Below the pieces are notes generated by a model that had not been told where the DNA came from, did not search any database, and saw only the letters and a list, made by a program, of their open reading frames with translations. A DNA stretch of 64,000 nt from Escherichia phage SUT_E1620: the sequence record OQ939939. The stretch is one strand, 5' to 3'. The position numbers were made by a program, and so were the translations under genes. How positions within the stretch are numbered: the first letter of the stretch is position 1; every line of letters starts with the position of its first letter. Below are positions 3,703 to 47,879 of the stretch, piece after piece.

Positions 3703-4111
3703 GATTAGTCTCCTCTAGTTCGTCAACGATTTCAAAATGATGAGTTGAGTAGTGTGGTAGTACCACTAACTGACAAAGTCTCTCGAAATTCTCCAGAGTT
3801 TGCATTTCAGAACCATAGTTATAAAGGTTCATCTTAATAGTACCACGGTAGTCTGAGTCGATCACTCCTGCGGTGTTTGCGATCATTAGTTTACGCTTAC
3901 CTAAAGAGCTGCGAGGAACTACCAAACCAAACCAACCTCGCGGAATTTCCACCGCGACACCGGTGTCAATCATAAGGGATTTGCCTGGTGCAATAGCACG
4001 TAAATCTGCCGCAAGGTTAGTACCAAAGAATGCACGCAGATCCATACCTGCGGCATCATCAGAACCAATCCTCGGCATGCAATCTGGATGAGTTAGTTTA
4101 ATTTTAATCAT
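3665..4111 (-). CDS. dut: dUTP pyrophosphatase (dUTPase)
   Basis: 148 aa; dUTPase motifs AGMDLRA, PRSSLG, GVIDSDYRG, RGEGGFGSSG. Confidence 0.9.
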   Translation of the reverse strand: MIKIKLTHPDCMPRIGSDDAAGMDLRAFFGTNLAADLRAIAPGKSLMIDTGVAVEIPRGWFGLVVPRSSLGKRKLMIANTAGVIDSDYRGTIKMNLYNYGSEMQTLENFERLCQLVVLPHYSTHHFEIVDELEETNRGEGGFGSSGSK

Positions 4112-8304: not shown

Positions 8305-9078
8305 TTAGTCGTCCAGATCGCTAGCAGCTTCAGCGTCGATGCCTTTCTGAGAACCAGCATCACCACCAGACTTAGCGTCACCGCCGTCTTGCTTCTCACG
8401 ACCTTCCATGAAGGCGAGAATAGCTTCTTTCTGCTCTTCATAGGACGGAACCGGGTAGGTTTCTTCCAGAGAAGGAACTTTTTCGAACTTGATGAACTCA
8501 CCAGTATCATCACACATAGCTTCACCGAGGATATCAACATCAGCGGCGTGCAGTTTAGACTCAGCACTGGTAGGATCTTTCAGTTTCATCTGGAACTGCA
8601 TTGCTGCGATCTGCTGTACATCGTACTCAGTATCGAAGCCTTTACCTTTCTTCTCGATAGAAATATCGATATCGAATGGATCTGCCAGTTCAAGCTGCTT
8701 CATGATAGACTGGATGCCTTTCAGGATAGTAGCTTTAACTTCCATAACTTTCAGTTTGTTATCGGAACGGTCGATAACGAAAGCAATGTAGTTTTTCTTC
8801 GGTTTCAGCGGAACACGATTACCATCTTTGTCCAGCTCTTTCTCGAAGAAGCCCATTTCGTGAATCGGGTCAGCTTTACCGCGAACGAAGCTCTCTTTAG
8901 TACGGTTGAAACGCAGACACTCAAACGGAGCTGCATTACCATCTTTGTTAGTCAGCCAGTAGACATAACGTGGAAGAACACCAGAAACGATACGAACACG
9001 AGTTACACCGTTGTTGAATTTCAGGAAGTCGATTTTATCGTTAGAACCGCCAGTAGTTTCGCCCCAAGACTTAGCCAT
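8305..9078 (-). CDS. Putative abundant DNA-binding protein (possible ssDNA-binding protein), acidic C-terminal tail
   Basis: 257 aa; host-optimal codon usage (CTG, CGT, GGT, ACC) suggesting high expression; acidic C-terminus DAEAASDLDD as in SSB-type proteins. Functional call is inference. Confidence 0.45.
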   Translation of the reverse strand: MAKSWGETTGGSNDKIDFLKFNNGVTRVRIVSGVLPRYVYWLTNKDGNAAPFECLRFNRTKESFVRGKADPIHEMGFFEKELDKDGNRVPLKPKKNYIAFVIDRSDNKLKVMEVKATILKGIQSIMKQLELADPFDIDISIEKKGKGFDTEYDVQQIAAMQFQMKLKDPTSAESKLHAADVDILGEAMCDDTGEFIKFEKVPSLEETYPVPSYEEQKEAILAFMEGREKQDGGDAKSGGDAGSQKGIDAEAASDLDD

Positions 9079-16484: not shown

Positions 16485-17252
16485 TTATTCAGCAGCCGCA
16501 GCTTTTGCATCCAGTTTAGCACGCTTAGCGGCACCATCATAGTCCTTAGCAACCAGACCACGACGAGACAGCATAGATTTAACACCGCGCTCAGACTTAC
16601 CAGTTTTCTCAGCGATCTCAGCAACAGTCATGTTAGCCAGATCCAGACCTTCTAACAGATCTTCACGAGTTTTAGCACTTGAAGTTTCCTGTACCGGCAT
16701 AGCAGCGATACGACCTTCACGAAGCAGACTCAGAGCTTTACCACGGATCTGCTTAATATTGCGACCGAAGTGAGCAGCGATAGCTTCAATAGTAGCACCA
16801 GCAACAACCTGATTAACGAAATCAGTTTCTTCGTCAGGAGTGAAGGAACGAACAGCAGCAGCTTTTTCGGTTGGCTTAACAGAAGCAGTCATTTCCAGAC
16901 TCAGGATCTTACCCTGTACCTGCTTAGCACCGAACTGACCACCAGCTACAGCAGCAGCGATTTCAGCGTAAGTATACTGACCAGCATGAGCGTTCAGGAA
17001 ATCAACCAGTTCAGCTTCCTGCTCAGGAGTCCACGGGGATTTCTGTACTTCGTTTGCTTTCTGTACTTCGAAACCTTCTTTACGCAGCTTAGAGCCAACA
17101 GAGCGAGCGGTAACGTCTTTACCAGTCTCGGTAGCCAGTTCAGCAGCGATAGCAGCTACTTGTTCTTGAGAGATTACAGCAACACCCAGAGCAGTGGCTT
17201 TTGCTTTCAGAGACTCGGTTACACCTTCTACGTTCCAGTTCAGTTTAGACAT
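16485..17252 (-). CDS. Abundant DNA-binding protein (T5 D5-like position), Ala-rich with internal repeats
   Basis: 255 aa; host-optimal codon usage; duplicated GxKxLSL/HTH-like segments; synteny next to ligase genes. Confidence 0.55.
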   Translation of the reverse strand: MSKLNWNVEGVTESLKAKATALGVAVISQEQVAAIAAELATETGKDVTARSVGSKLRKEGFEVQKANEVQKSPWTPEQEAELVDFLNAHAGQYTYAEIAAAVAGGQFGAKQVQGKILSLEMTASVKPTEKAAAVRSFTPDEETDFVNQVVAGATIEAIAAHFGRNIKQIRGKALSLLREGRIAAMPVQETSSAKTREDLLEGLDLANMTVAEIAEKTGKSERGVKSMLSRRGLVAKDYDGAAKRAKLDAKAAAAE

Positions 17253-20168: not shown

Positions 20169-20579
20169 TTACTTAGTGATAGCTCGGATAGCTTCTGCCA
20201 GATGAGCAGCTGCTTTACCGGTCAGCTTGTCGATGATTGCGTCGTCCAGGAAGTCCGGTGCTAAGCCAGCATCAGAGAATGCAGAGCGAAGATCGGAGTG
20301 AGCCTGAGCTTTGGAAGTACGAGAACCACCAGAAGCTTTTTCTCCAGTAGATACGCTTGATTTAGCAGTAGAGCCAGCAGCTTTCTTGATATACAGACCT
20401 GCTTTGGTCAGCTTCATACGGAAACCGTTCGGAGTTACACCATTTTCCTGAGCAATTTCGCTAACAATTTCCATGCTAACGCCCGGACGCTCATCTTCTG
20501 GGAATTGCTCCATACGAGCAACGTAGTCGGAAGACATTTTTTCGAACAGTTCATCAGTCCACTGAGTTGGAGTAGTCAT
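20169..20579 (-). CDS. Hypothetical protein (136 aa), likely highly expressed
   Basis: ORF after consensus promoter; host-optimal codon usage. Confidence 0.6.
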   Translation of the reverse strand: MTTPTQWTDELFEKMSSDYVARMEQFPEDERPGVSMEIVSEIAQENGVTPNGFRMKLTKAGLYIKKAAGSTAKSSVSTGEKASGGSRTSKAQAHSDLRSAFSDAGLAPDFLDDAIIDKLTGKAAAHLAEAIRAITK

Positions 20580-40157: not shown

Positions 40158-40205
40158 AAAAATTCACTTGCTTAAAGCCCTCGAATTTAGTATAATATTC
40201 GTATT
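40158..40205 (+). promoter_or_regulatory. Sigma70-type early promoter
   Basis: AAAAATTCACTTGCTT (-35 at 40168-40173), N17, TATAAT (40191-40196). Confidence 0.75.
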
Positions 40206-40223: not shown

Positions 40224-40502
40224 ATGCGAATTTACAACTCAAATTCATTAGGATTTAAACCTTTGAGAAAACGCGCACAATCTCCGCGTCAGATCAGAAA
40301 GGCAAATATTGGTGAGCCAGAAACTAGGCTTCCACCACCTCCGGAGCAGCGTCTAGTTTATCTAGATGAAGAATTAGCCGAAAGGGAACGCAAAGCTCAA
40401 GAAGAAATTGAGCGCAAGAAACTGTGTACTGCTCCTGCATATAACAAGGGTGGTTATCAGTACGTTTCCAGTGAGGAACAAGCTAAGATGATCGGCAGAT
40501 AA
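40224..40502 (+). CDS. Hypothetical protein (92 aa)
   Basis: ORF after consensus promoter and GAGGAGGG RBS. Confidence 0.6.
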   Translation: MRIYNSNSLGFKPLRKRAQSPRQIRKANIGEPETRLPPPPEQRLVYLDEELAERERKAQEEIERKKLCTAPAYNKGGYQYVSSEEQAKMIGR

Positions 40503-40509
40503 TTTTTAA

Positions 40510-40560
40510 AAAATTCATTTGCTAAACGCTTCAAAATTTCGTATAATATATCTCATAAAT
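40510..40560 (+). promoter_or_regulatory. Sigma70-type early promoter
   Basis: TTGCTA (40519-40524), N17, TATAAT (40542-40547), downstream CATAAATTGATCAAC box. Confidence 0.75.
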
Positions 40561-40585
40561 TGATCAACAAAAAGGAAAACAAATA

Positions 40586-41101
40586 ATGGCTAAGCAGAAA
40601 AACGCAAAAACTCAGGCAGCTCCGGCAGTTAAAACTTTCGCTCAGACCGAAGCCAATCGTAAGGCTCGTCTGGAACGTCATCTGCGTAAGCATCCTACTG
40701 ATGCTCAGGCTCAGACTGCCCTGAAGTCTGCGGCTCCGGTTCGCCAGAAGCCGAAGGCCAAGAACTCTACTCGCGCAACTGCTAAGCAGGTTGTGTTCAT
40801 CAAGGGTGAAGGTCATAAGTCTGTACCGGTAACTCTGAGCTTTAACGGCGGTGCTGAGATGTTCGCCCGCAACGGTATGGCTCTGAAAGACTACGAAAAA
40901 GCAGTCAATCAGAAGCGTAAGCCAATGGCTGACGTAATGCGTGAATCCCGTGGACAGTTTGGCTCCGTTAAACCGAATATCTTCGGTGTAGAGTACAGCC
41001 GTGACAACGTTCGCGCTCTGTGCTATGGTATCGGTATTAAGTTTACTGGTGCTTCTGATCGTAAATCCGCTAAACCTGCTCGTAAGCGTAAAGCGAAGTA
41101 A
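40586..41101 (+). CDS. Lysine/alanine-rich basic protein, likely highly expressed (unknown function)
   Basis: 171 aa; strong RBS AAAGGAAAAC; host-optimal codons; the 190-aa minus-strand ORF over the same DNA is judged antisense artefact. Confidence 0.65.
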   Translation: MAKQKNAKTQAAPAVKTFAQTEANRKARLERHLRKHPTDAQAQTALKSAAPVRQKPKAKNSTRATAKQVVFIKGEGHKSVPVTLSFNGGAEMFARNGMALKDYEKAVNQKRKPMADVMRESRGQFGSVKPNIFGVEYSRDNVRALCYGIGIKFTGASDRKSAKPARKRKAK

Positions 41102-41107
41102 TGATTG

Positions 41108-41125
41108 ATGGGGCGAAAGCCCCAT
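41108..41125 (+). terminator. GNRA-tetraloop hairpin (weak terminator or processing site)
   Basis: TGGGGC-GAAA-GCCCCA hairpin, weak T-tract; motif recurs at ~41388 and ~43337. Confidence 0.4.
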
Positions 41126-41162
41126 ATATTAACTCTTTCTCTGACTAATTAAGGATATTTTT

Positions 41163-41378
41163 ATGTTCTCTAAGAAACCACGTTCCGTTACTGAAATCGT
41201 TGCTTCCTTTACCACTATTACTGATGAACTTCAAGCTCGTATTGAAGCTGACCAGAAAACTGCTGCTGATATTCAGAAACAGCAAGAAGAACTCGCTCTG
41301 AAACTGGCTGAAACCAATAAGAGTGAAAAATCTGCTCAAACTATTAAGGAAAATATCCTTAAACTGCTGGGCAAGTAA
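41163..41378 (+). CDS. Hypothetical protein (71 aa)
   Basis: ORF with host-optimal codons. Confidence 0.55.
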   Translation: MFSKKPRSVTEIVASFTTITDELQARIEADQKTAADIQKQQEELALKLAETNKSEKSAQTIKENILKLLGK

Positions 41379-41419
41379 TTTAAATCAGGGGGCGAAAGCC
41401 ACTCTTATTTGGAGAAACT

Positions 41420-41632
41420 ATGCGTAACTTCGTTGCAAAGAATGATTTTAACCGTGCTAGCACTCACAAGTCTGCTAGAGACTACACTCGTCTTTCTAAA
41501 CATGAGCTTCTAGAAGAAATCATGGAAGAAAACTGGGATGTTAGTGAAAATGGAACAGACCTGTTTGAAGAAGAGGAACTTCCTCTGAAAGACCCCAAAC
41601 AGTGGGAGTCTATTAAAGAGACAGCTCTTTAA
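41420..41632 (+). CDS. Hypothetical acidic protein (70 aa)
   Basis: ORF with RBS GGAGAAA. Confidence 0.55.
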   Translation: MRNFVAKNDFNRASTHKSARDYTRLSKHELLEEIMEENWDVSENGTDLFEEEELPLKDPKQWESIKETAL

Positions 41633-41662
41633 TAGTTTTCTACAACAATAAAGGACATAATT

Positions 41663-42364
41663 ATGAAATTCAAGCCCTTTGGTATGCTGGACATTGAATC
41701 TCTAGGTACTCCAGGAAATTGCGGTACTACTCATATTGCAATGCCTTCTTTCGCTTTTGTAGCGATGCACGGAATTGATAAAGATCCTGATCTGGTATTC
41801 GTTACTCTAGACGTTCAAGATCAGCTTAATGCGGGTGCTAAGGTAACTGCCTCTACTATTGCATTCTGGATGGATCAAGCTAAAAACAGTCCATCTGCGC
41901 TCCATATTATGGAGGCTCTAAATGGTCGTAATCCTAAACTGATTGCCTTCCGTGATGGTAAGCATCACTGCACTAATGACGTAGGCTCTAATTATGCTGC
42001 CTTCTCTATGGCTCAGAACATTATGGAATTGTCTCTAGGAGATAATGCTCTGTATTACGGCAATGGCCCAGAGTTTGATATGACAATCTACTCTGCAAAT
42101 ACGTTCCATGCCGGAACCAATGAAGAAATAGTTCCGTGGAAATTCTGGAACTTAGGTAACGTTCGATCTTTCCGTAATCAGTGGATGCAAGCTGGTTATA
42201 GCTATAAAGATCTAGAAGCCGAAGGTGCTAGCTGGGCAAAAGCTAAAATGGAAAAAATGGACACCATTCGTTATGGAATCTACCCTGTGAAGCATGATCC
42301 AGCATTCGATGCTTTAGTTGAAAGTTATTGTGTAGCCGTCATGATCGAAAAAATCAAAATTTGA
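41663..42364 (+). CDS. Putative DEDDh-type 3'-5' exonuclease
   Basis: N-terminal MLDIESLG (exo motif I-like DxE), C-terminal HDPAFDAL (motif III-like H...D); weak, by eye. Confidence 0.4.
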   Translation: MKFKPFGMLDIESLGTPGNCGTTHIAMPSFAFVAMHGIDKDPDLVFVTLDVQDQLNAGAKVTASTIAFWMDQAKNSPSALHIMEALNGRNPKLIAFRDGKHHCTNDVGSNYAAFSMAQNIMELSLGDNALYYGNGPEFDMTIYSANTFHAGTNEEIVPWKFWNLGNVRSFRNQWMQAGYSYKDLEAEGASWAKAKMEKMDTIRYGIYPVKHDPAFDALVESYCVAVMIEKIKI

Positions 42365-42410
42365 TTTGCTTTCAGCTCCAAAATTCTGTATAATATATTC
42401 ATAAATTTGA
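42360..42410 (+). promoter_or_regulatory. Sigma70-type early promoter
   Basis: TTGCTT (42366-42371), N17, TATAAT (42389-42394), CATAAATTTGAGAGAAC box. Confidence 0.75.
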
Positions 42411-42434
42411 GAGAACAACAAAAGGAAAACAATT

Positions 42435-42617
42435 ATGCCAGTATCTAAAAACGTCCGTAAAAATGGTAAAGTAGCAAAACGTAACCTGGGTCTACGTCGT
42501 ATGGCTGAACGTCAGTCCGGCATCCAGAAAATCTTTAACGTACTGAATCGCGCCAATCCGAATATTGATAACAGTTCTGATACTGTTCTGCGCACTCTGC
42601 TCGCAATCGGTCTGTAA
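42435..42617 (+). CDS. Hypothetical basic protein (60 aa)
   Basis: ORF after promoter with RBS AAAGGAAAAC. Confidence 0.55.
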   Translation: MPVSKNVRKNGKVAKRNLGLRRMAERQSGIQKIFNVLNRANPNIDNSSDTVLRTLLAIGL

Positions 42618-42668
42618 TAGACCGTTTTTAAAACAAATTCAAATCTCAAACTTCATATAAGGAAGCAA

Positions 42669-43310
42669 ATGATGACTACTCGTATCTCTAAAACTCGTGC
42701 TCTGGCAACTATCAAGTCTCTGGAAGCTAAAATCCGTAAAGCTACTGAACAACAGCTTTTGATTGCTGTTGGTGAAGGTAAAGACAAGAATCAAGTTGTC
42801 GTTGGTGCTGCAATCGAAGTAGATGCTCTGTCTACTCGTATTAAAACTGATTTCCAGTCTCTGCTGGATATGATGACCCAGCGTGATCATCTGAAAGCAG
42901 CGCTGATCAAGAGCAATGCTGAAACTGTTGTAGAGATCGGTTCCCGCTCTATGACTGTTGCGGAAGCAATCGAAGCTAAGCGTTCTATGGAACTCAAAGC
43001 TCAGTTGCTGGCTAACATGCGTAAGCAGTTCCATGCTGCTACTGTTAAGTTTAACACTCAGAAGGCTCAGTTTGATGCCAAGTATGAGCGTTTGCAGGAT
43101 ACCATGGCTACCCGCGATAAGAAGACTTCCGAGGATGAAGTTAAGATGCAGCTTAACCTGCTGGAACTCAAGAACACTCCGTTCCTGATCGATCCGCTGG
43201 AGCTGGAAAAGCTGATCAAGCAACACGACGAAGAATACCAGGACTTTGCAACCAACGTTGACTTTGTTCTGTCTGAGTCCAACGCCTCTACTTTTATCGA
43301 AGTAGAGTAA
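42669..43310 (+). CDS. Hypothetical coiled-coil protein (213 aa), likely highly expressed
   Basis: Host-optimal codon usage; overlapping minus-strand ORFs judged antisense artefacts. Confidence 0.6.
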   Translation: MMTTRISKTRALATIKSLEAKIRKATEQQLLIAVGEGKDKNQVVVGAAIEVDALSTRIKTDFQSLLDMMTQRDHLKAALIKSNAETVVEIGSRSMTVAEAIEAKRSMELKAQLLANMRKQFHAATVKFNTQKAQFDAKYERLQDTMATRDKKTSEDEVKMQLNLLELKNTPFLIDPLELEKLIKQHDEEYQDFATNVDFVLSESNASTFIEVE

Positions 43311-43684
43311 TAATTTAAAAGACTAGTAAATCGGTAGACGAAAGCCCAAGCATCTTACCTCGCAGCAGCGGTTGAAATACGAGGTTAAATAAGACCGCTG
43401 ACCATACTATAAGGTATAATCTATTGGAGATTATGTTTATTACATCAGACATTTAATCTGACACGTAAAAACAAAAGGTCGTTGGTAGTACCAACACAAC
43501 TTCAAAGATCAACGCTCAAGTATGAAAGCTGAAAAGTTAAAAGCACTCAAACTTCTAACCTTCTAAAGCTAAAAGATGCAAAGTATTCGTTGATGATTCA
43601 AACCCTAGATCAAAGGTACATGGCTCATAAGATATGGCCTGTGGCGCCTCTAGGCTGTTTATCGGTTTACTAGTCTCTCAATTT

Positions 43685-43730
43685 AAAAATGTATTTGCTA
43701 ATTAGTTTAGTTTTCTGTATAATATATTTT
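43685..43730 (+). promoter_or_regulatory. Sigma70-type early promoter
   Basis: TTGCTA (43695-43700), N17, TATAAT (43718-43723). Confidence 0.7.
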
Positions 43731-43753
43731 TAAATTGATGAGACGAGGCTCCT

Positions 43754-44071
43754 ATGACTTTACATATTTTGTTTGATGATGTACGTGACTTAAATGGAAT
43801 GGATATCATCATCAGAAACCCTGATGTAGCGTACGAAATGCTCTATCAGTTACAACTCCAGGGTAATTATCTTTATTTAGATAATGACATGGGTAGTAAA
43901 GTAGAAGGCCACCATTTGTTAAGTCGTATCCTAGAAGATAAAGATTTGTACCCTAAAAAGGTGGTTTTAGTCACCAGCAATTCTGTTGCTGCAGAAAATA
44001 TGCGCCAACAGTTAAAAACAGCTGGTTATCAAGAAAACCCCAATCGTATTGAGTACGATTGGCAGGAGTAA
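43754..44071 (+). CDS. Hypothetical protein (105 aa)
   Basis: ORF after consensus promoter. Confidence 0.55.
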   Translation: MTLHILFDDVRDLNGMDIIIRNPDVAYEMLYQLQLQGNYLYLDNDMGSKVEGHHLLSRILEDKDLYPKKVVLVTSNSVAAENMRQQLKTAGYQENPNRIEYDWQE

Positions 44072-44075
44072 ATAA

Positions 44076-44600
44076 ATGGAAATAACCCAGGAAAACCTAT
44101 TATCCTTATTTCACTACAATAGTGAGGAAGGTAGATTGTACTGGAAAGCTAATCCCAATAAAGCCCCTGCATGGAATGCCAAATGGGCGGATAAGCCTGC
44201 TGGGGCTAAAGATGGGAAATCAATAGTAGTGTCCATTGATAATAAATCATACAGACACCATAGATTAGTATTTTTATATCATAAAGGATACTTACCAGTA
44301 CAAGTTGATCATAAAGATAGGACTAGGCATGACACTAATCCTTTCTGCGATAAAATAGAAAATCTCAGAGACGCCACTCATTCACAAAATAATGCTAATA
44401 AAGATATTGGGAAGGCCAATACTTCTGGCTATAAAAATGTGTATAAAACACATCAAGGGTGGAGGGTTATTGTAAAGAAAGATAAAAAGCCTATAGAGGG
44501 CGGAACCTTTCTTAGTCTAAAAGAAGCGGTAGATGTAGCAAATGATTTAAGGTTTGACCTATTCGGTGAATTTGCACTATACCAGCCGTATAAGGAGTGA
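44076..44600 (+). CDS. HNH homing endonuclease
   Basis: Motif HRLVFLYHKGYLPVQVDHKDRTRHDTNPFCDKIENL. Confidence 0.8.
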   Translation: MEITQENLLSLFHYNSEEGRLYWKANPNKAPAWNAKWADKPAGAKDGKSIVVSIDNKSYRHHRLVFLYHKGYLPVQVDHKDRTRHDTNPFCDKIENLRDATHSQNNANKDIGKANTSGYKNVYKTHQGWRVIVKKDKKPIEGGTFLSLKEAVDVANDLRFDLFGEFALYQPYKE

Positions 44601-46934: not shown

Positions 46935-47879
46935 ATGTTTACTAAAAACACTAAAGAACTGACTTCCGATCAAAAAGTAATTCGTACTATTAAACGTTGG
47001 GGTGTTGGTGCTGTAGTTGGTCTTGGCGCTCTTATTCTGGCTCTCAATTCCTATACAGTTGTTCAGGACGGTACGGTTAAAACTCAGACTTTCCTGGGTA
47101 AAGTTAGTCCTAATCCTGTATTGCCGGGGTTCCATATTGTTAACCCATTTGCTTCTTTTGATACTTTTAGTACGAAAGATATTTCCATGAAACTGGATAA
47201 ACTTCAGGTTCCTAGCCAGGATAAGTTTAAGTCTACTGTTGACATTACCGTTATGTTGCAGTTTGATGGTGCTAAAGCTCCTATGAACCGTGTTAACGCA
47301 GGTACTCAGGATCAAGCTCTGAACAAGTACGTTGAAGAGAAGATGCTGTCTACGATTCGTGAGTTTGGTAAGTCTGTACCAAAAGCACAAGATCTGTTCG
47401 ACGCTAAGATTCAGGCTCAACTGCAAACCGCTATTCAGCAAGAAGTAGAAGAGTACGCGCGCCCTTATGGTTACACCGTTAAGCAAGTATTCCTTCAGGA
47501 TATTACTCTGCCACCGGTAATTATGGAACAGGTACAGAACACCAAAGTTCGTGAAGAACAAGTTAACGCTGCAAAAGCTGAACTGGCTCGTGTTGAACAA
47601 GAAGCACAGCAGAAAGTTAAGCAAGCTGAGGCAGATCGTTCCGCTCGTGAAAATATGGCAGTAGCTAACGAACGTGACGCAGATGCTAAACTGTACGCAG
47701 CTAAGAAAGAAGCTGAAGCTAACGCCGCTCTGCAACGTACCATTACTCCTGAAATGATTCGTTGGAAGCAGCTGGAAGTTGAAATGCTTCGTGCTGAAAA
47801 ATACCAAGGTGGTGTACCGCAGACTGTTGTCGGTACTGGCTACGATGGTCAAATGATCATGGATATGCGTAACAAGTAA
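46935..47879 (+). CDS. SPFH/band-7 (prohibitin-like) membrane protein
   Basis: N-terminal TM helix (WGVGAVVGLGALILAL), SPFH-like core, C-terminal coiled coil; 341-aa minus-strand ORF here judged antisense artefact. Confidence 0.7.
   Translation: MFTKNTKELTSDQKVIRTIKRWGVGAVVGLGALILALNSYTVVQDGTVKTQTFLGKVSPNPVLPGFHIVNPFASFDTFSTKDISMKLDKLQVPSQDKFKSTVDITVMLQFDGAKAPMNRVNAGTQDQALNKYVEEKMLSTIREFGKSVPKAQDLFDAKIQAQLQTAIQQEVEEYARPYGYTVKQVFLQDITLPPVIMEQVQNTKVREEQVNAAKAELARVEQEAQQKVKQAEADRSARENMAVANERDADAKLYAAKKEAEANAALQRTITPEMIRWKQLEVEMLRAEKYQGGVPQTVVGTGYDGQMIMDMRNK

What the first reader, a model, noticed from the sequence alone, without database searches (positions are those of the whole stretch)
40510..43310. 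Block of unknown-function early genes with host-optimised codon usage, including a lysine-rich basic protein
ORFs 40586..41101, 41163..41378, 42435..42617 and 42669..43310 use markedly host-optimal codons (CTG, CGT, CCG, GGT, AAA) compared with neighbouring AT-rich genes, and sit behind consensus strong promoters with AAAGGAAAAC-type RBSs. This predicts very abundant early proteins, and none is recognisable by eye. Abundant early proteins of this kind are candidates for host-takeover or anti-defence factors.
Basis: partly seen in the sequence, partly recalled or inferred. Interest (0 to 1): 0.45.

Follow-up and report, generated by a model that had tools for sequence, protein, structure and literature searches.

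The report
Abundant early genes plus hidden RNA
The flagged genes of this T5-like phage really are built for very high early expression, and the last one is followed by an unannotated, highly conserved ~355-base structured RNA; this protein–RNA pair recurs in hundreds of phages and bacteria and matched nothing in Rfam or the papers searched.

Summary
The window is a T5-like phage (Epseptimavirus, about 99% identical to Salmonella phage SE3). The four ORFs have E. coli CAI values of 0.50-0.60 against a window median of 0.28, ranking 4, 5, 6 and 8 of 90 genes. That is the level of the phage's SSB and its D5-like DNA-binding protein. They lie in two operons behind T5-type early promoters, one of which is the homologue of the annotated T5 promoter P-H207.

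Three of the proteins occur only in T5-like phages: the basic 171-aa DUF7022 protein and the 71- and 60-aa ORFs. Their function remains unknown.

The 213-aa protein (the T5.085 homologue, mislabelled "tail fiber") belongs to a very large family without a Pfam model. Its fold resembles the DIP1984/DUF6847 structure 3KDQ. In 75 of 80 bacterial loci and 55 of 56 phage loci the gene is followed on the same strand by one structured RNA.

In the window this RNA spans 43321-43675. It has a closing helix, an H-type pseudoknot, about a dozen A-rich heptads (GNUYAAA) and a covarying 3' domain. It is 96% identical to T5, whereas the flanking genes are 71-89% identical. No Rfam family matches it.

My best reading, which is inferred, is a protein-RNA particle that is often embedded in phage tRNA clusters.

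The parts
40519..40547 (+). T5-type early promoter (TTGCTA-N17-TATAAT), homologue of the annotated T5 promoter P-H207. It heads operon 1 (171-aa, 71-aa and 70-aa ORFs plus the exonuclease).
   Evidence: pattern occurs 18 times against 0.03 expected. (T5 annotation places 'promoter P-H 207' directly upstream of T5.089). (the aligned promoter stretch is nearly identical to T5).
40571..40580 (+). AAAGGAAAAC ribosome binding site of the 171-aa ORF.
   Evidence: 3 matches against 0.19 expected.
40586..41101 (+). 171-aa basic protein (pI 10.9, 14% Lys), Pfam DUF7022, T5.089 homologue, CAI 0.603. Conserved N-terminal TEANRKARLERHLRKHP motif and C-terminal FGSVKPNIFGVEYSR.NVRALCYG.GIKFTG motif, with a variable middle insert.
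   Evidence: Restricted to T5-like phages. The AlphaFold model is poor (pLDDT 64).
41110..41123 (+). GGGGCGAAAGCCCC hairpin (GAAA loop) after the 171-aa ORF. A similar hairpin lies at about 41388-41402 after the 71-aa ORF.
   Evidence: Read directly from the sequence. Function not tested.
41163..41378 (+). 71-aa helical protein, phrog_2380, CAI 0.545.
   Evidence: No relative found outside close T5-like phages.
41420..41632 (+). 70-aa acidic protein (DUF7230 N-terminus), CAI 0.373. Not codon-optimised.
41663..42364 (+). 233-aa Rv2179c-like 3'-5' exo(ribo)nuclease, T5.087 homologue, CAI 0.344.
42366..42394 (+). T5-type early promoter (TTGCTT-N17-TATAAT). It heads operon 2 (60-aa ORF, 213-aa ORF, structured RNA).
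   Evidence: T5 annotates a promoter at the same place.
42435..42617 (+). 60-aa very basic protein (pI 11.9), phrog_5252, T5.086 homologue, CAI 0.502. A terminator-like hairpin at 42608-42624 overlaps its stop codon.
   Evidence: Not found outside close relatives.
42669..43310 (+). 213-aa protein (212 aa if it starts at 42672), T5.085 homologue, CAI 0.604. All-helical with short strands, DIP1984-like fold. Invariant residues S82-N83 and D198/L201/S202/S204/N205. Member of a family of about 3600 50%-identity clusters with no Pfam model.
   Evidence: (pLDDT 91.4).
43321..43675 (+). Unannotated structured RNA, about 355 nt, co-oriented with and immediately 3' of the 213-aa gene.
43321..43336 (+). 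5' strand of the 16-bp closing helix. It pairs with 43660-43675 and includes G-U pairs that would be A-C mismatches on the opposite strand.
43357..43400 (+). H-type pseudoknot. Stem 1 is 43357-62/43380-85 and stem 2 is 43366-73/43393-400, with a conserved GGUUAAA linker.
   Evidence: stem 1. (stem 2 has an entirely different sequence in each lineage but stays complementary).
43500..43583 (+). Array of about 11 A-rich heptads (consensus G-N-U-Y-A-A-A).
   Evidence: autocorrelation 0.469 at lag 7 and 0.443 at lag 14, against 0.30 in shuffles. (mode of 12 units across 76 non-redundant loci).
43604..43654 (+). 3' domain. P1 is 43604-08/43650-54 and P1b is 43614-17/43646-49. The hairpin 43622-25/43636-39 has the loop CAUAAGAUAU, conserved among the Gram-negative phage copies.
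   Evidence: Covariance-model hits.
43695..43723 (+). Next T5-type promoter, serving the cREC_REC-domain gene at 43754-44071. It bounds the RNA on the 3' side.

Best explanation
SHOWN. The block consists of two early operons of a T5-like phage whose first and last genes are tuned for very high expression.

Operon 2 runs from the promoter at 42366 through the 60-aa ORF and the 213-aa ORF, and does not end at 43310. It continues into a roughly 355-nt structured RNA (43321-43675). The 213-aa gene and this RNA form a conserved two-part module. The same protein family is followed by the same RNA architecture in T5-like phages, in roughly 146-kb and jumbo-sized phage contigs, in SPbeta-like prophages and in many Firmicutes chromosomes. 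That architecture is a closing helix, a pseudoknot, about 12 single-stranded GNUYAAA heptads and a covarying 3' domain.

INFERRED. The protein and the RNA work together as a ribonucleoprotein. Several copies of the elongated helical, DIP1984-like protein would bind the evenly spaced heptads, one site per unit. The pseudoknot, the 3' domain and the closing helix would protect the ends and make the RNA stable. This would explain why the protein gene is codon-optimised to the level of stoichiometric proteins such as SSB.

In phages the module usually sits inside the tRNA gene cluster, and the RNA's 3' end abuts a tRNA. It is therefore probably released by tRNA-processing enzymes and may act on tRNA or translation-related RNA metabolism.

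The other three codon-optimised proteins (the DUF7022 basic protein and the 71- and 60-aa ORFs) are T5-lineage-specific, abundant early proteins. The two basic ones are most likely nucleic-acid binders. Their targets are unknown.
For: Expression tuning
- CAI ranks, and parity with SSB and the D5-like protein.
- Promoters and ribosome binding sites.

The RNA is real
- 74 of 77 bacterial downstream regions are linked by blastn.
- P1 plus P1b are 92.9% paired, against 34-43% when the 3' partners are slid. The covariation score is 0.628 against 0.16, and 0 of 500 shuffles reach it. P1b was not used to select the sequences.
- RNAalifold on an unguided MAFFT alignment of 14 Gram-negative phage gaps recovers the closing helix, pseudoknot stem 1, P1, P1b and the hairpin. 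18 of 29 pairs show compensatory changes.
- Pseudoknot stem 2 is fully different yet complementary across lineages.
- MFE is -97.8 kcal/mol, z = -5.2.
- The RNA is 96.1% identical between this phage and T5, while the flanking CDSs are 71-89% identical.

The window carries the family
- A bacteria-only covariance model gives a single hit in 128 kb searched, at 43584-43677 on the + strand.
- A second model, trained without the window or its close relatives, gives E = 0.018 at the same place.

Coupling of gene and RNA
- 75 of 80 bacterial loci and 55 of 56 phage loci have the RNA on the same strand 200-450 nt after the stop codon.
- Starting from an RNA pattern, 22 hits (plus one truncated locus) have the protein upstream. 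The 9 hits without it are not recognised by the model.
- There is no other conserved neighbour.

Other points
- Heptad periodicity.
- tRNA clustering and abutment in phages.
- Protein fold.
Against: - No binding, expression or processing data exist for the RNA or the protein. The RNP itself is inference from linkage.
- The protein is net acidic (pI 6.0), which is unusual for a protein that coats RNA.
- Its only structural relative (3KDQ, DIP1984/DUF6847) has no known function or RNA link.
- A terminator-like hairpin (42608-42624) lies between the promoter and the 213-aa gene, so transcription through to the RNA is assumed.
- E-values of the window hit are modest (0.44 and 0.018, with rough calibration). 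The case rests on position, strand and architecture together.
- P1 was located with a regex that required complementarity, so its '100% paired' figure is partly by construction.
Confidence: 0.5

Rival explanations
1. The RNA is a cis-acting 3' UTR of the 213-aa gene's mRNA. It would be a stabilising or autoregulatory element that the protein may bind to control its own synthesis, not a separate functional RNA.
For: The RNA always lies on the same strand directly after the stop codon. No promoter is evident inside the window's gap. High expression of the gene would benefit from a protected 3' end.
Against: It is 300-360 nt long with a pseudoknot, a long-range closing helix and a dozen conserved heptads. 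That is far more than a 3' stabiliser needs. It is more conserved than the coding sequence it would serve, 96% against 89%. In many phages a tRNA abuts its 3' end, which implies excision as a discrete molecule. In L072 a tRNA lies between the gene and the repeats.
Confidence: 0.2
2. The module is a decoy. The heptads (U-Y-A-A-A, resembling the U33-N34-36-A37 part of anticodon loops that read UUN codons, or the GUUCAAA of T-loops) would mimic tRNA loops. They would soak up a tRNA-directed nuclease or modification enzyme, with the protein acting as scaffold. This would be a counter-defence function that fits its place in phage tRNA islands.
For: In about 30 of 53 phage loci the module lies inside a same-strand tRNA cluster. 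Heptad consensus. Neighbouring genes in the window are RNA-related: an Rv2179c-like exoribonuclease and a cREC_REC domain protein. The resemblance to tRNA loops comes from my own reading and was not tested.
Against: Most bacterial copies sit in ordinary chromosomal contexts. tRNAs are nearby in only 5 of 77, and there are no defence or phage neighbours in most. The heptads lack stems, so they are not stem-loop mimics. PADLOC gives no hit.
Confidence: 0.15
3. Protein and RNA are functionally independent. The RNA is simply one more stable RNA that travels with the gene because both sit in a mobile cassette.
For: No direct evidence of interaction. Phage tRNA regions collect unrelated small genes and RNAs.
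Against: Linkage, order, strand and spacing are kept from Enterobacteria phages to Firmicutes, cyanobacteria-like and archaeal MAGs at 30-40% protein identity, while every other neighbour changes. The RNA was not found without the protein.
Confidence: 0.1
4. The proteins are virion components, as some database labels say ('tail fiber protein' for the 213-aa ORF; 'structural protein' for the 171-aa ORF).
For: The label on PHROG 1491 and several GenBank and UniRef names.
Against: The genes lie in the early region behind sigma-70 early promoters, far from the morphogenesis genes. The 213-aa protein has a DIP1984-like helical fold and bacterial chromosomal homologues. A virion mass-spectrometry study of a T5-like phage that I read lists only capsid, tail tube, fibre and pb2 (PMC3326045). 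No primary evidence for the labels was found.
Confidence: 0.03

Closest known systems
DIP1984 family / Pfam DUF6847 (crystal structure 3KDQ, Corynebacterium diphtheriae)
   Different: The window protein does not reach the DUF6847 or DIP1984_fam HMMs. It is about 60 residues longer, with an internal repeat of the helix-SNAxT-strand unit. DIP1984 itself has no known function and no known RNA partner.
TRAP (trp RNA-binding attenuation protein) with its 11 (G/U)AG repeats
   Same: As a way of working: an RNA presenting about a dozen short, evenly spaced single-stranded repeats, which suggests one protein subunit per repeat.
   Different: TRAP is a beta-sandwich 11-mer ring with a repeat period of 5 nt in a 5' leader. 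Here the protein is helical, the period is 7 nt, and the repeats lie in a closed 350-nt RNA 3' of the gene. The oligomeric state is not known.
Type III toxin-antitoxin systems (ToxIN, CptIN)
   Same: A protein gene genetically coupled to a tandem-repeat RNA, found in phages and bacteria.
   Different: There the repeats are 34-45 nt, lie upstream of the toxin and are cut by the endoRNase toxin. Here the units are 7 nt, lie downstream and are flanked by structured domains. The protein fold is unrelated and PADLOC gives no hit.
Large structured RNAs near phage tRNA genes (ROOL, GOLLD) and RNA-protein pairs such as Ro-Y RNA, OLE-Oap and tmRNA-SmpB
   Same: A stable, ornate RNA of several hundred nt, often next to tRNA genes in phages, closed by pairing of its 5' and 3' ends, and with a dedicated protein gene alongside.
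   Different: No Rfam 15 model matches, either at gathering or at permissive thresholds. The heptad array has no counterpart in those RNAs. The partner protein is unrelated.
T5 genes T5.085-T5.090 and promoter P-H207
   Same: Direct orthologues, 71-89% identical at the DNA level, with the same order and promoters.
   Different: In the T5 record the genes are 'hypothetical' or 'tail fiber protein', and the interval holding the RNA carries no feature.

Membership tests
Pfam DUF7022 (PF22887) | Full-length match above the gathering score. | tested here: met
   The 171-aa ORF scores 266.4 bits against a cut-off of 27, covering residues 1-169 of the protein and positions 1-166 of 166 in the profile.
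PHROG 1491 ('tail fiber protein') | Sequence match to the PHROG profile. | tested here: met
   E = 4.1e-81, full length.
PHROG 1491 ('tail fiber protein') | Being a tail fibre: a late or morphogenesis gene, a fibre-like fold, and virion association. | tested here: not met
   Early region behind an early promoter. Helical DIP1984-like fold. Homologues in bacterial chromosomes without phage genes. Virion association is not testable here.
DIP1984 family / DUF6847 | Match to the family HMM at its threshold. | tested here: not met
   No DUF6847 or DIP1984_fam hit for the 213-aa protein at E <= 0.1 or E <= 1. A fragment of 3KDQ hits both models strongly.
DIP1984 family / DUF6847 | Same three-dimensional fold. 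| tested here: met
T5 early (sigma-70) promoters | -35 TTGCTW, 17-nt spacer, -10 TATAAT, and correspondence to a mapped T5 promoter. | tested here: met
   Copies at 40519 and 42366. 40519 aligns with the annotated P-H207. Timing of transcription is not testable with these tools.
Highly expressed genes by codon adaptation | CAI in the top decile of the genome and comparable to known abundant proteins. | tested here: met
   Ranks 4, 5, 6 and 8 of 90. SSB scores 0.673 and the D5-like protein 0.714. Actual abundance was not tested.
Any Rfam 15 family (tmRNA, ROOL, GOLLD, Y RNA, drum, skipping-rope and others) | Covariance-model score at the gathering threshold over 43311-43753. | tested here: not met
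   Only tRNAs are found in the window. A permissive scan of the gap gives chance-level miRNA hits in the promoter region only. The same is true for a bacterial copy.
Type III toxin-antitoxin | Repeat RNA upstream of an endoRNase toxin, units of about 34-45 nt, match to known toxin families. | tested here: not met
   The RNA lies downstream and has 7-nt units. No PADLOC hit.
Multi-site RNA-binding oligomer (TRAP-like mode of action) | The RNA carries about 10 or more evenly spaced short repeats. | tested here: met
   Peaks at lag 7 and lag 14. Mode of 12 in-phase units, against 5.1 in shuffles.
Multi-site RNA-binding oligomer (TRAP-like mode of action) | The protein oligomerises and contacts one repeat per subunit. 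| not testable with these tools
   Needs biochemistry or a protein-RNA structure.

The most novel reading that the evidence does not exclude
The T5.085-family protein and its downstream RNA are a previously unrecognised, widespread ribonucleoprotein of phages and bacteria. An ornate RNA displays about twelve tRNA-loop-like heptads and is loaded with multiple copies of a DIP1984-fold protein. Large lytic phages make it at very high levels early in infection from within their tRNA islands. It would manipulate or protect tRNA or translation-related RNA metabolism, for example by titrating a tRNA-directed nuclease or RNA-binding factor.
Probability: 0.2. Interest if true: 0.85.

Novelty: categorically new. 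Interest (0 to 1): 0.65.

Why it matters
T5 is a classic model phage, yet a stretch that is more conserved than its neighbouring genes has carried no annotation. If the protein-RNA pair is a particle, three things follow:

- It gives a first functional handle on a protein family of thousands of clusters with no Pfam model, and by extension on the DIP1984/DUF6847 fold.
- It adds a new class of large structured RNA. That class was not detected by any Rfam 15 model.
- It suggests that phage 'tRNA islands' carry more than tRNAs.

The system is directly testable, because T5 and the BASEL Epseptimaviruses are genetically tractable. The work also corrects a propagated 'tail fiber' mis-annotation. Finally, it shows that codon adaptation within a phage genome picks out stoichiometric proteins.

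Tried and rejected
- Pfam, NCBIfam, PADLOC and PDB-sequence searches of all ORFs gave only DUFs, PHROGs of unknown function and sub-threshold noise such as PilP, Spy and MadC.
- The AlphaFold model of the 171-aa DUF7022 protein was too poor (pLDDT 64, pTM 0.25) to use for fold search. A profile search found no relatives beyond T5-like phages.
- The afdb50 fold library was unavailable.
- Literature searches for T5.085-089, DUF7022, DUF6847/DIP1984, T5 ncRNAs and repeat RNAs returned nothing relevant. The 'septicolysin' hits are plasmid annotation labels only.
- tmRNA or tRNA-like identity of the RNA was rejected. There is no Rfam hit, and ARAGORN calls only the adjacent tRNAs and no tmRNA at the equivalent sites in related phage loci. 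ARAGORN was not run on the window itself.
- A promoter inside the gap was rejected: TTGAAA and TATAAT are 37 nt apart (read).
- A small ORF in the repeat array was rejected: there are stops in all frames.
- My first attempt to count heptads by walking back from P1 failed and was replaced by a longest-chain count.
- The GGTTAA anchor for the pseudoknot also hits the repeats, so only anchors within about 125 nt of the stop codon are meaningful.
- The 190-aa antisense ORF at 40553-41125 is a shadow of the codon-biased sense gene, not a gene.
- No conserved partner genes exist around bacterial homologues.


Full report
**1. What the window is**

The 4 kb around the finding is about 99% identical to Salmonella phage SE3 and Escherichia phage IrmaTschudi (Demerecviridae, Epseptimavirus). 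It matches 444 T5-like phage records.

In IrmaTschudi and in T5 the region lies in the early part of the genome, after nrdA/nrdB, frd, thy and rnh and before the tRNA cluster. The T5 equivalents are:
- 40224-40502 = T5.090
- 40586-41101 = T5.089
- 41663-42364 = T5.087 (exonuclease)
- 42435-42617 = T5.086
- 42669-43310 = T5.085 (annotated 'tail fiber protein')
- 43754-44071 = T5.084

The T5 record places the named promoter 'P-H 207' directly upstream of T5.089, and unnamed promoters upstream of T5.090, T5.086 and T5.084.

**2. Checking the observation**

I called 90 genes in the window with an iterative codon model.

The four named ORFs score 0.603, 0.545, 0.502 and 0.604. The other 86 genes have a median of 0.278 and a mean of 0.302 (sd 0.108). 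The four rank 4, 5, 6 and 8 of 90 (Mann-Whitney p = 7.6e-5).

CTG makes up 71% of Leu codons against 20% elsewhere, CCG 62% against 18%, and GGT 75% against 54%. AGA, AGG and ATA are absent. AAA is the exception, at 45% against 63%.

The genes that outrank them include the phage's single-stranded DNA-binding protein (8305-9078, CAI 0.673) and the D5-like 'putative DNA binding protein' (16485-17252, CAI 0.714). Within this genome, high CAI therefore marks proteins needed in stoichiometric amounts.

The T5-type promoter pattern TTGCTW-N17-TATAAT occurs 18 times in the window against 0.03 expected. Copies lie at 40168, 40519, 42366 and 43695. AAAGGAAAAC occurs at 40571 and 42421. The stretch at 40519 aligns almost base for base with T5's P-H207.

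The layout is therefore two operons:
- P40519, then the 171-aa ORF, a hairpin, the 71-aa ORF, a hairpin, the 70-aa ORF and the exonuclease.
- P42366, then the 60-aa ORF, a terminator-like hairpin and the 213-aa ORF.

**3. The three lineage-restricted proteins**

The 171-aa protein (pI 10.9) is a full-length member of Pfam DUF7022 and phrog_4516. Sequence and profile searches of 5.8 billion proteins find only 34 and 53 clusters respectively, all carrying DUF7022. Those with source names are T5-like phages or enterobacterial isolates, and the rest are unnamed metagenome sequences. tblastn finds it in 533 phage records.

Its N-terminal motif (TEANRKARLERHLRKHP) and C-terminal motif (FGSVKPNIFGVEYSR.NVRALCYG.GIKFTG) are conserved. 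A central beta-hairpin insert is present only in some lineages. The AlphaFold model is poor (pLDDT 64), and no PDB relative exists.

The 71-aa and 60-aa ORFs match only PHROGs of unknown function and were not found outside close relatives. I can say only that these are T5-lineage-specific, probably abundant early proteins. From their charge and disorder, the two basic ones are likely nucleic-acid binders.

**4. The 213-aa protein**

It has no Pfam, NCBIfam or PADLOC hit. It does have full-length homologues at 30-57% identity well outside T5-like phages, including Paenibacillus and Clostridium botulinum.

A profile of 67 members finds 3605 50%-identity clusters at E <= 1e-3 and 1712 at E <= 1e-30, nearly all 200-215 aa long.

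The 'tail fiber' label has no support. The gene is early, the fold is not fibre-like, and 194 bacterial genome loci encode relatives. Their neighbours are heterogeneous, mostly housekeeping genes, with a few SPbeta-like prophages among them.

**5. The unexpected part: a structured RNA just past the finding's end**

In the 77 bacterial loci where I could call the gene, it is followed by a 300-600-nt stretch without ORFs. 74 of those 77 downstream regions are linked to each other by blastn across genera and phyla.

Read directly, they share one architecture:
- a 5' segment that pairs with the extreme 3' end;
- an H-type pseudoknot with a conserved GGUUAAA linker;
- one or two variable hairpins;
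- a single-stranded run of A-rich 7-nt units;
- a 3' domain beginning (U)UCGAU.AAAUCC and ending GGCUG.

The window's own 440-nt 'non-coding' gap has the same layout. The closing helix is 43321-43336/43660-43675. Pseudoknot stem 1 is 43357-62/43380-85 and stem 2 is 43366-73/43393-400. The heptads span 43500-43583. P1 is 43604-08/43650-54, P1b is 43614-17/43646-49, and a hairpin lies at 43622-25/43636-39.

**6. Evidence that this is a structured RNA and not chance**

- On 42 non-redundant sequences aligned by MAFFT, P1 plus P1b are 92.9% paired, against 34-43% when the 3' partners are slid by 1-3 columns. The covariation score is 0.628 against 0.16, and 0 of 500 shuffles reach it. P1 was found with a regex that demanded complementarity, so its perfection is partly by construction. 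P1b was not selected for. It is 81% paired, with UA, AU, GC and CG all frequent at its outer pair.
- RNAalifold on an unguided alignment of 14 gaps from Gram-negative phages independently predicts the closing helix, pseudoknot stem 1, P1, P1b and the hairpin. 18 of 29 pairs show double changes. Several G-U pairs are invariant, and these would be A-C mismatches on the other strand, so the + strand is the RNA strand.
- Pseudoknot stem 2 has an entirely different sequence in each lineage yet stays complementary. Examples are CAGCGGUU/GACCGCUG in the window, UUAGCCAC/GUGGCUAA, UGGGGA/UCCCCA, CGAGGC/GCCUCG, UGCCUGG/CCAGGCA and GCAGGUC/GACCUGC.
- The 355-nt RNA folds to -97.8 kcal/mol, z = -5.2 against dinucleotide shuffles.
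- Between this phage and T5 the RNA interval is 96.1% identical, whereas the surrounding genes are 71-89% identical.
- The repeat region has a sharp 7-nt periodicity. Identity is 0.469 at lag 7 and 0.443 at lag 14, against 0.30 in shuffles. The consensus is G-N-U-Y-A-A-A. The commonest number of in-phase units is 12, against 5.1 in shuffles.

**7. Evidence that the window belongs to the family and that gene and RNA are coupled**

A covariance model of the 3' domain built from bacterial sequences only (R1) gives exactly one hit in the 64-kb window on both strands. It lies at 43584-43677 on the + strand (17.9 bits, E 0.44).

A second model was built from bacterial and non-T5 phage hits, without the window or its close relatives. 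It gives E = 0.018 at the same site, and the only other hit is at E 2.3.

Among 56 phage loci that encode the protein, 55 have an R1 hit on the same strand 200-450 nt after the stop codon. There were only two stray weak hits elsewhere in 715 kb searched. The one locus without a hit (L115) has the element by eye.

In the reverse direction, a short pattern from the RNA's hairpin found 32 places in IMG/VR. Of these, 22 have the protein immediately upstream and one is truncated. The other 9 are not recognised by R1, so they are chance pattern matches.

None of the other genes of the block travels with the pair. No Rfam 15 family matches the RNA at gathering or permissive thresholds, in the window or in bacterial copies. 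I found no paper describing it.

**8. Context in phages**

In about 30 of 53 diverse phage loci the module sits inside a same-strand tRNA gene cluster. In at least ten of them a tRNA starts 0-3 nt after the RNA's 3' end. In L113, for example, the hit ends at 4050 and tRNA-Thr starts at 4053. L114, L116-L118, L120, L148, L156 and L158 are similar. This suggests that tRNA-processing enzymes release the RNA.

In the window the module lies 2.3 kb upstream of the first tRNA. It is flanked by an Rv2179c-like exoribonuclease and a cREC_REC-domain protein. In bacteria, tRNAs are rarely nearby (5 of 77 loci).

**9. Mechanism**

Shown: the genes are tuned for high expression, the RNA is a conserved structured element, and it is tightly linked to the 213-aa gene across very distant hosts.

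Inferred: the two act together as a ribonucleoprotein, with several copies of the protein on the heptad array and the structured ends providing stability. The stoichiometric-level codon optimisation of the protein fits a many-copies-per-RNA model. Its net negative charge (pI 6.0) and the absence of any binding data count against it.

Rivals are a cis-acting 3' UTR, a decoy of tRNA loops for tRNA-directed enzymes, simple hitch-hiking, and the database 'structural protein' labels. I rate these 0.2, 0.15, 0.1 and 0.03.

**10. Verdict**

Its inference of abundance is reasonable, and its anti-defence idea is unsupported.

The block itself consists of already-catalogued hypothetical genes of T5-like phages. 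What is new is that the last gene has an obligate RNA companion that no Rfam 15 model detected and that no paper I found describes. The pair forms a widespread module in phages and bacteria. Its function is unknown, but it is now directly testable in T5.

Noticed in passing
window 40553-41125 (-): A 190-aa antisense ORF is longer than the real 171-aa gene on the + strand. It is a shadow of the strongly biased codon usage and scores worse in the coding model.
   Followed up: partly
window 44076-44600 (+): A 174-aa HNH/homing-endonuclease-like ORF lies between the cREC_REC gene and the SleB-like hydrolase. It is absent at this position in phage IrmaTschudi, where the two genes are adjacent. This looks like a mobile insertion.
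   Followed up: no
window 43754-44071 (+) and 41663-42364 (+): The RNA is flanked by RNA-metabolism-type genes. One is a cyclic-phosphate-processing receiver domain protein (PF20274 cREC_REC, E 1.9e-12). The other is an Rv2179c-like 3'-5' exoribonuclease (PF16473).
   Followed up: no
window 46935-47879 (+): A 314-aa Band_7/SPFH-domain protein has a high CAI (0.530) and lies just inside the tRNA region.
   Followed up: no
window 20169-20579 (-): A 136-aa ORF with no Pfam match has the third-highest CAI in the window (0.645). It is another probably abundant early protein of unknown function.
   Followed up: no
window 41110-41123, about 41388-41402, and 43333-43347: A GCGAAAGC-type (GAAA-loop) hairpin motif recurs after the 171-aa ORF, after the 71-aa ORF and near the 5' end of the RNA. 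These could be processing or stabilising elements.
   Followed up: no
L113, L120, L158 (phage contigs of about 146 kb), about 230-290 nt after the gene's stop codon: An extra GC-rich stem-loop (…GGCUCUUAGGAGGCUGUG…) is inserted in the middle of the heptad array, so the array tolerates a structured insertion.
   Followed up: no
L052 5240-5337 and 5602-5695: There are two tandem hits of the RNA's 3' domain after one protein gene in a Parabacteroides MAG, which suggests a duplicated RNA.
   Followed up: no
L006 7019-7147: A skipping-rope RNA (RF02924, 54 bits) lies about 100 nt beyond the new RNA in Paenibacillus xylaniclasticus. Whether this is coincidence is unknown.
   Followed up: no
L072, 80-155 nt after the gene's stop codon: A tRNA-Gln gene lies between the protein gene and the heptad/3' domain of the RNA in a Neomarinimicrobiota MAG. 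This argues that the RNA is not simply the mRNA's 3' UTR.
   Followed up: partly
L004 8001-9345 (C. botulinum SPbeta-like prophage): The protein-RNA module sits next to an HU-like gene, PhoH/PIN, and YonK/YonJ homologues. YonO-type RdRP-domain neighbours occur in two other bacterial loci.
   Followed up: partly
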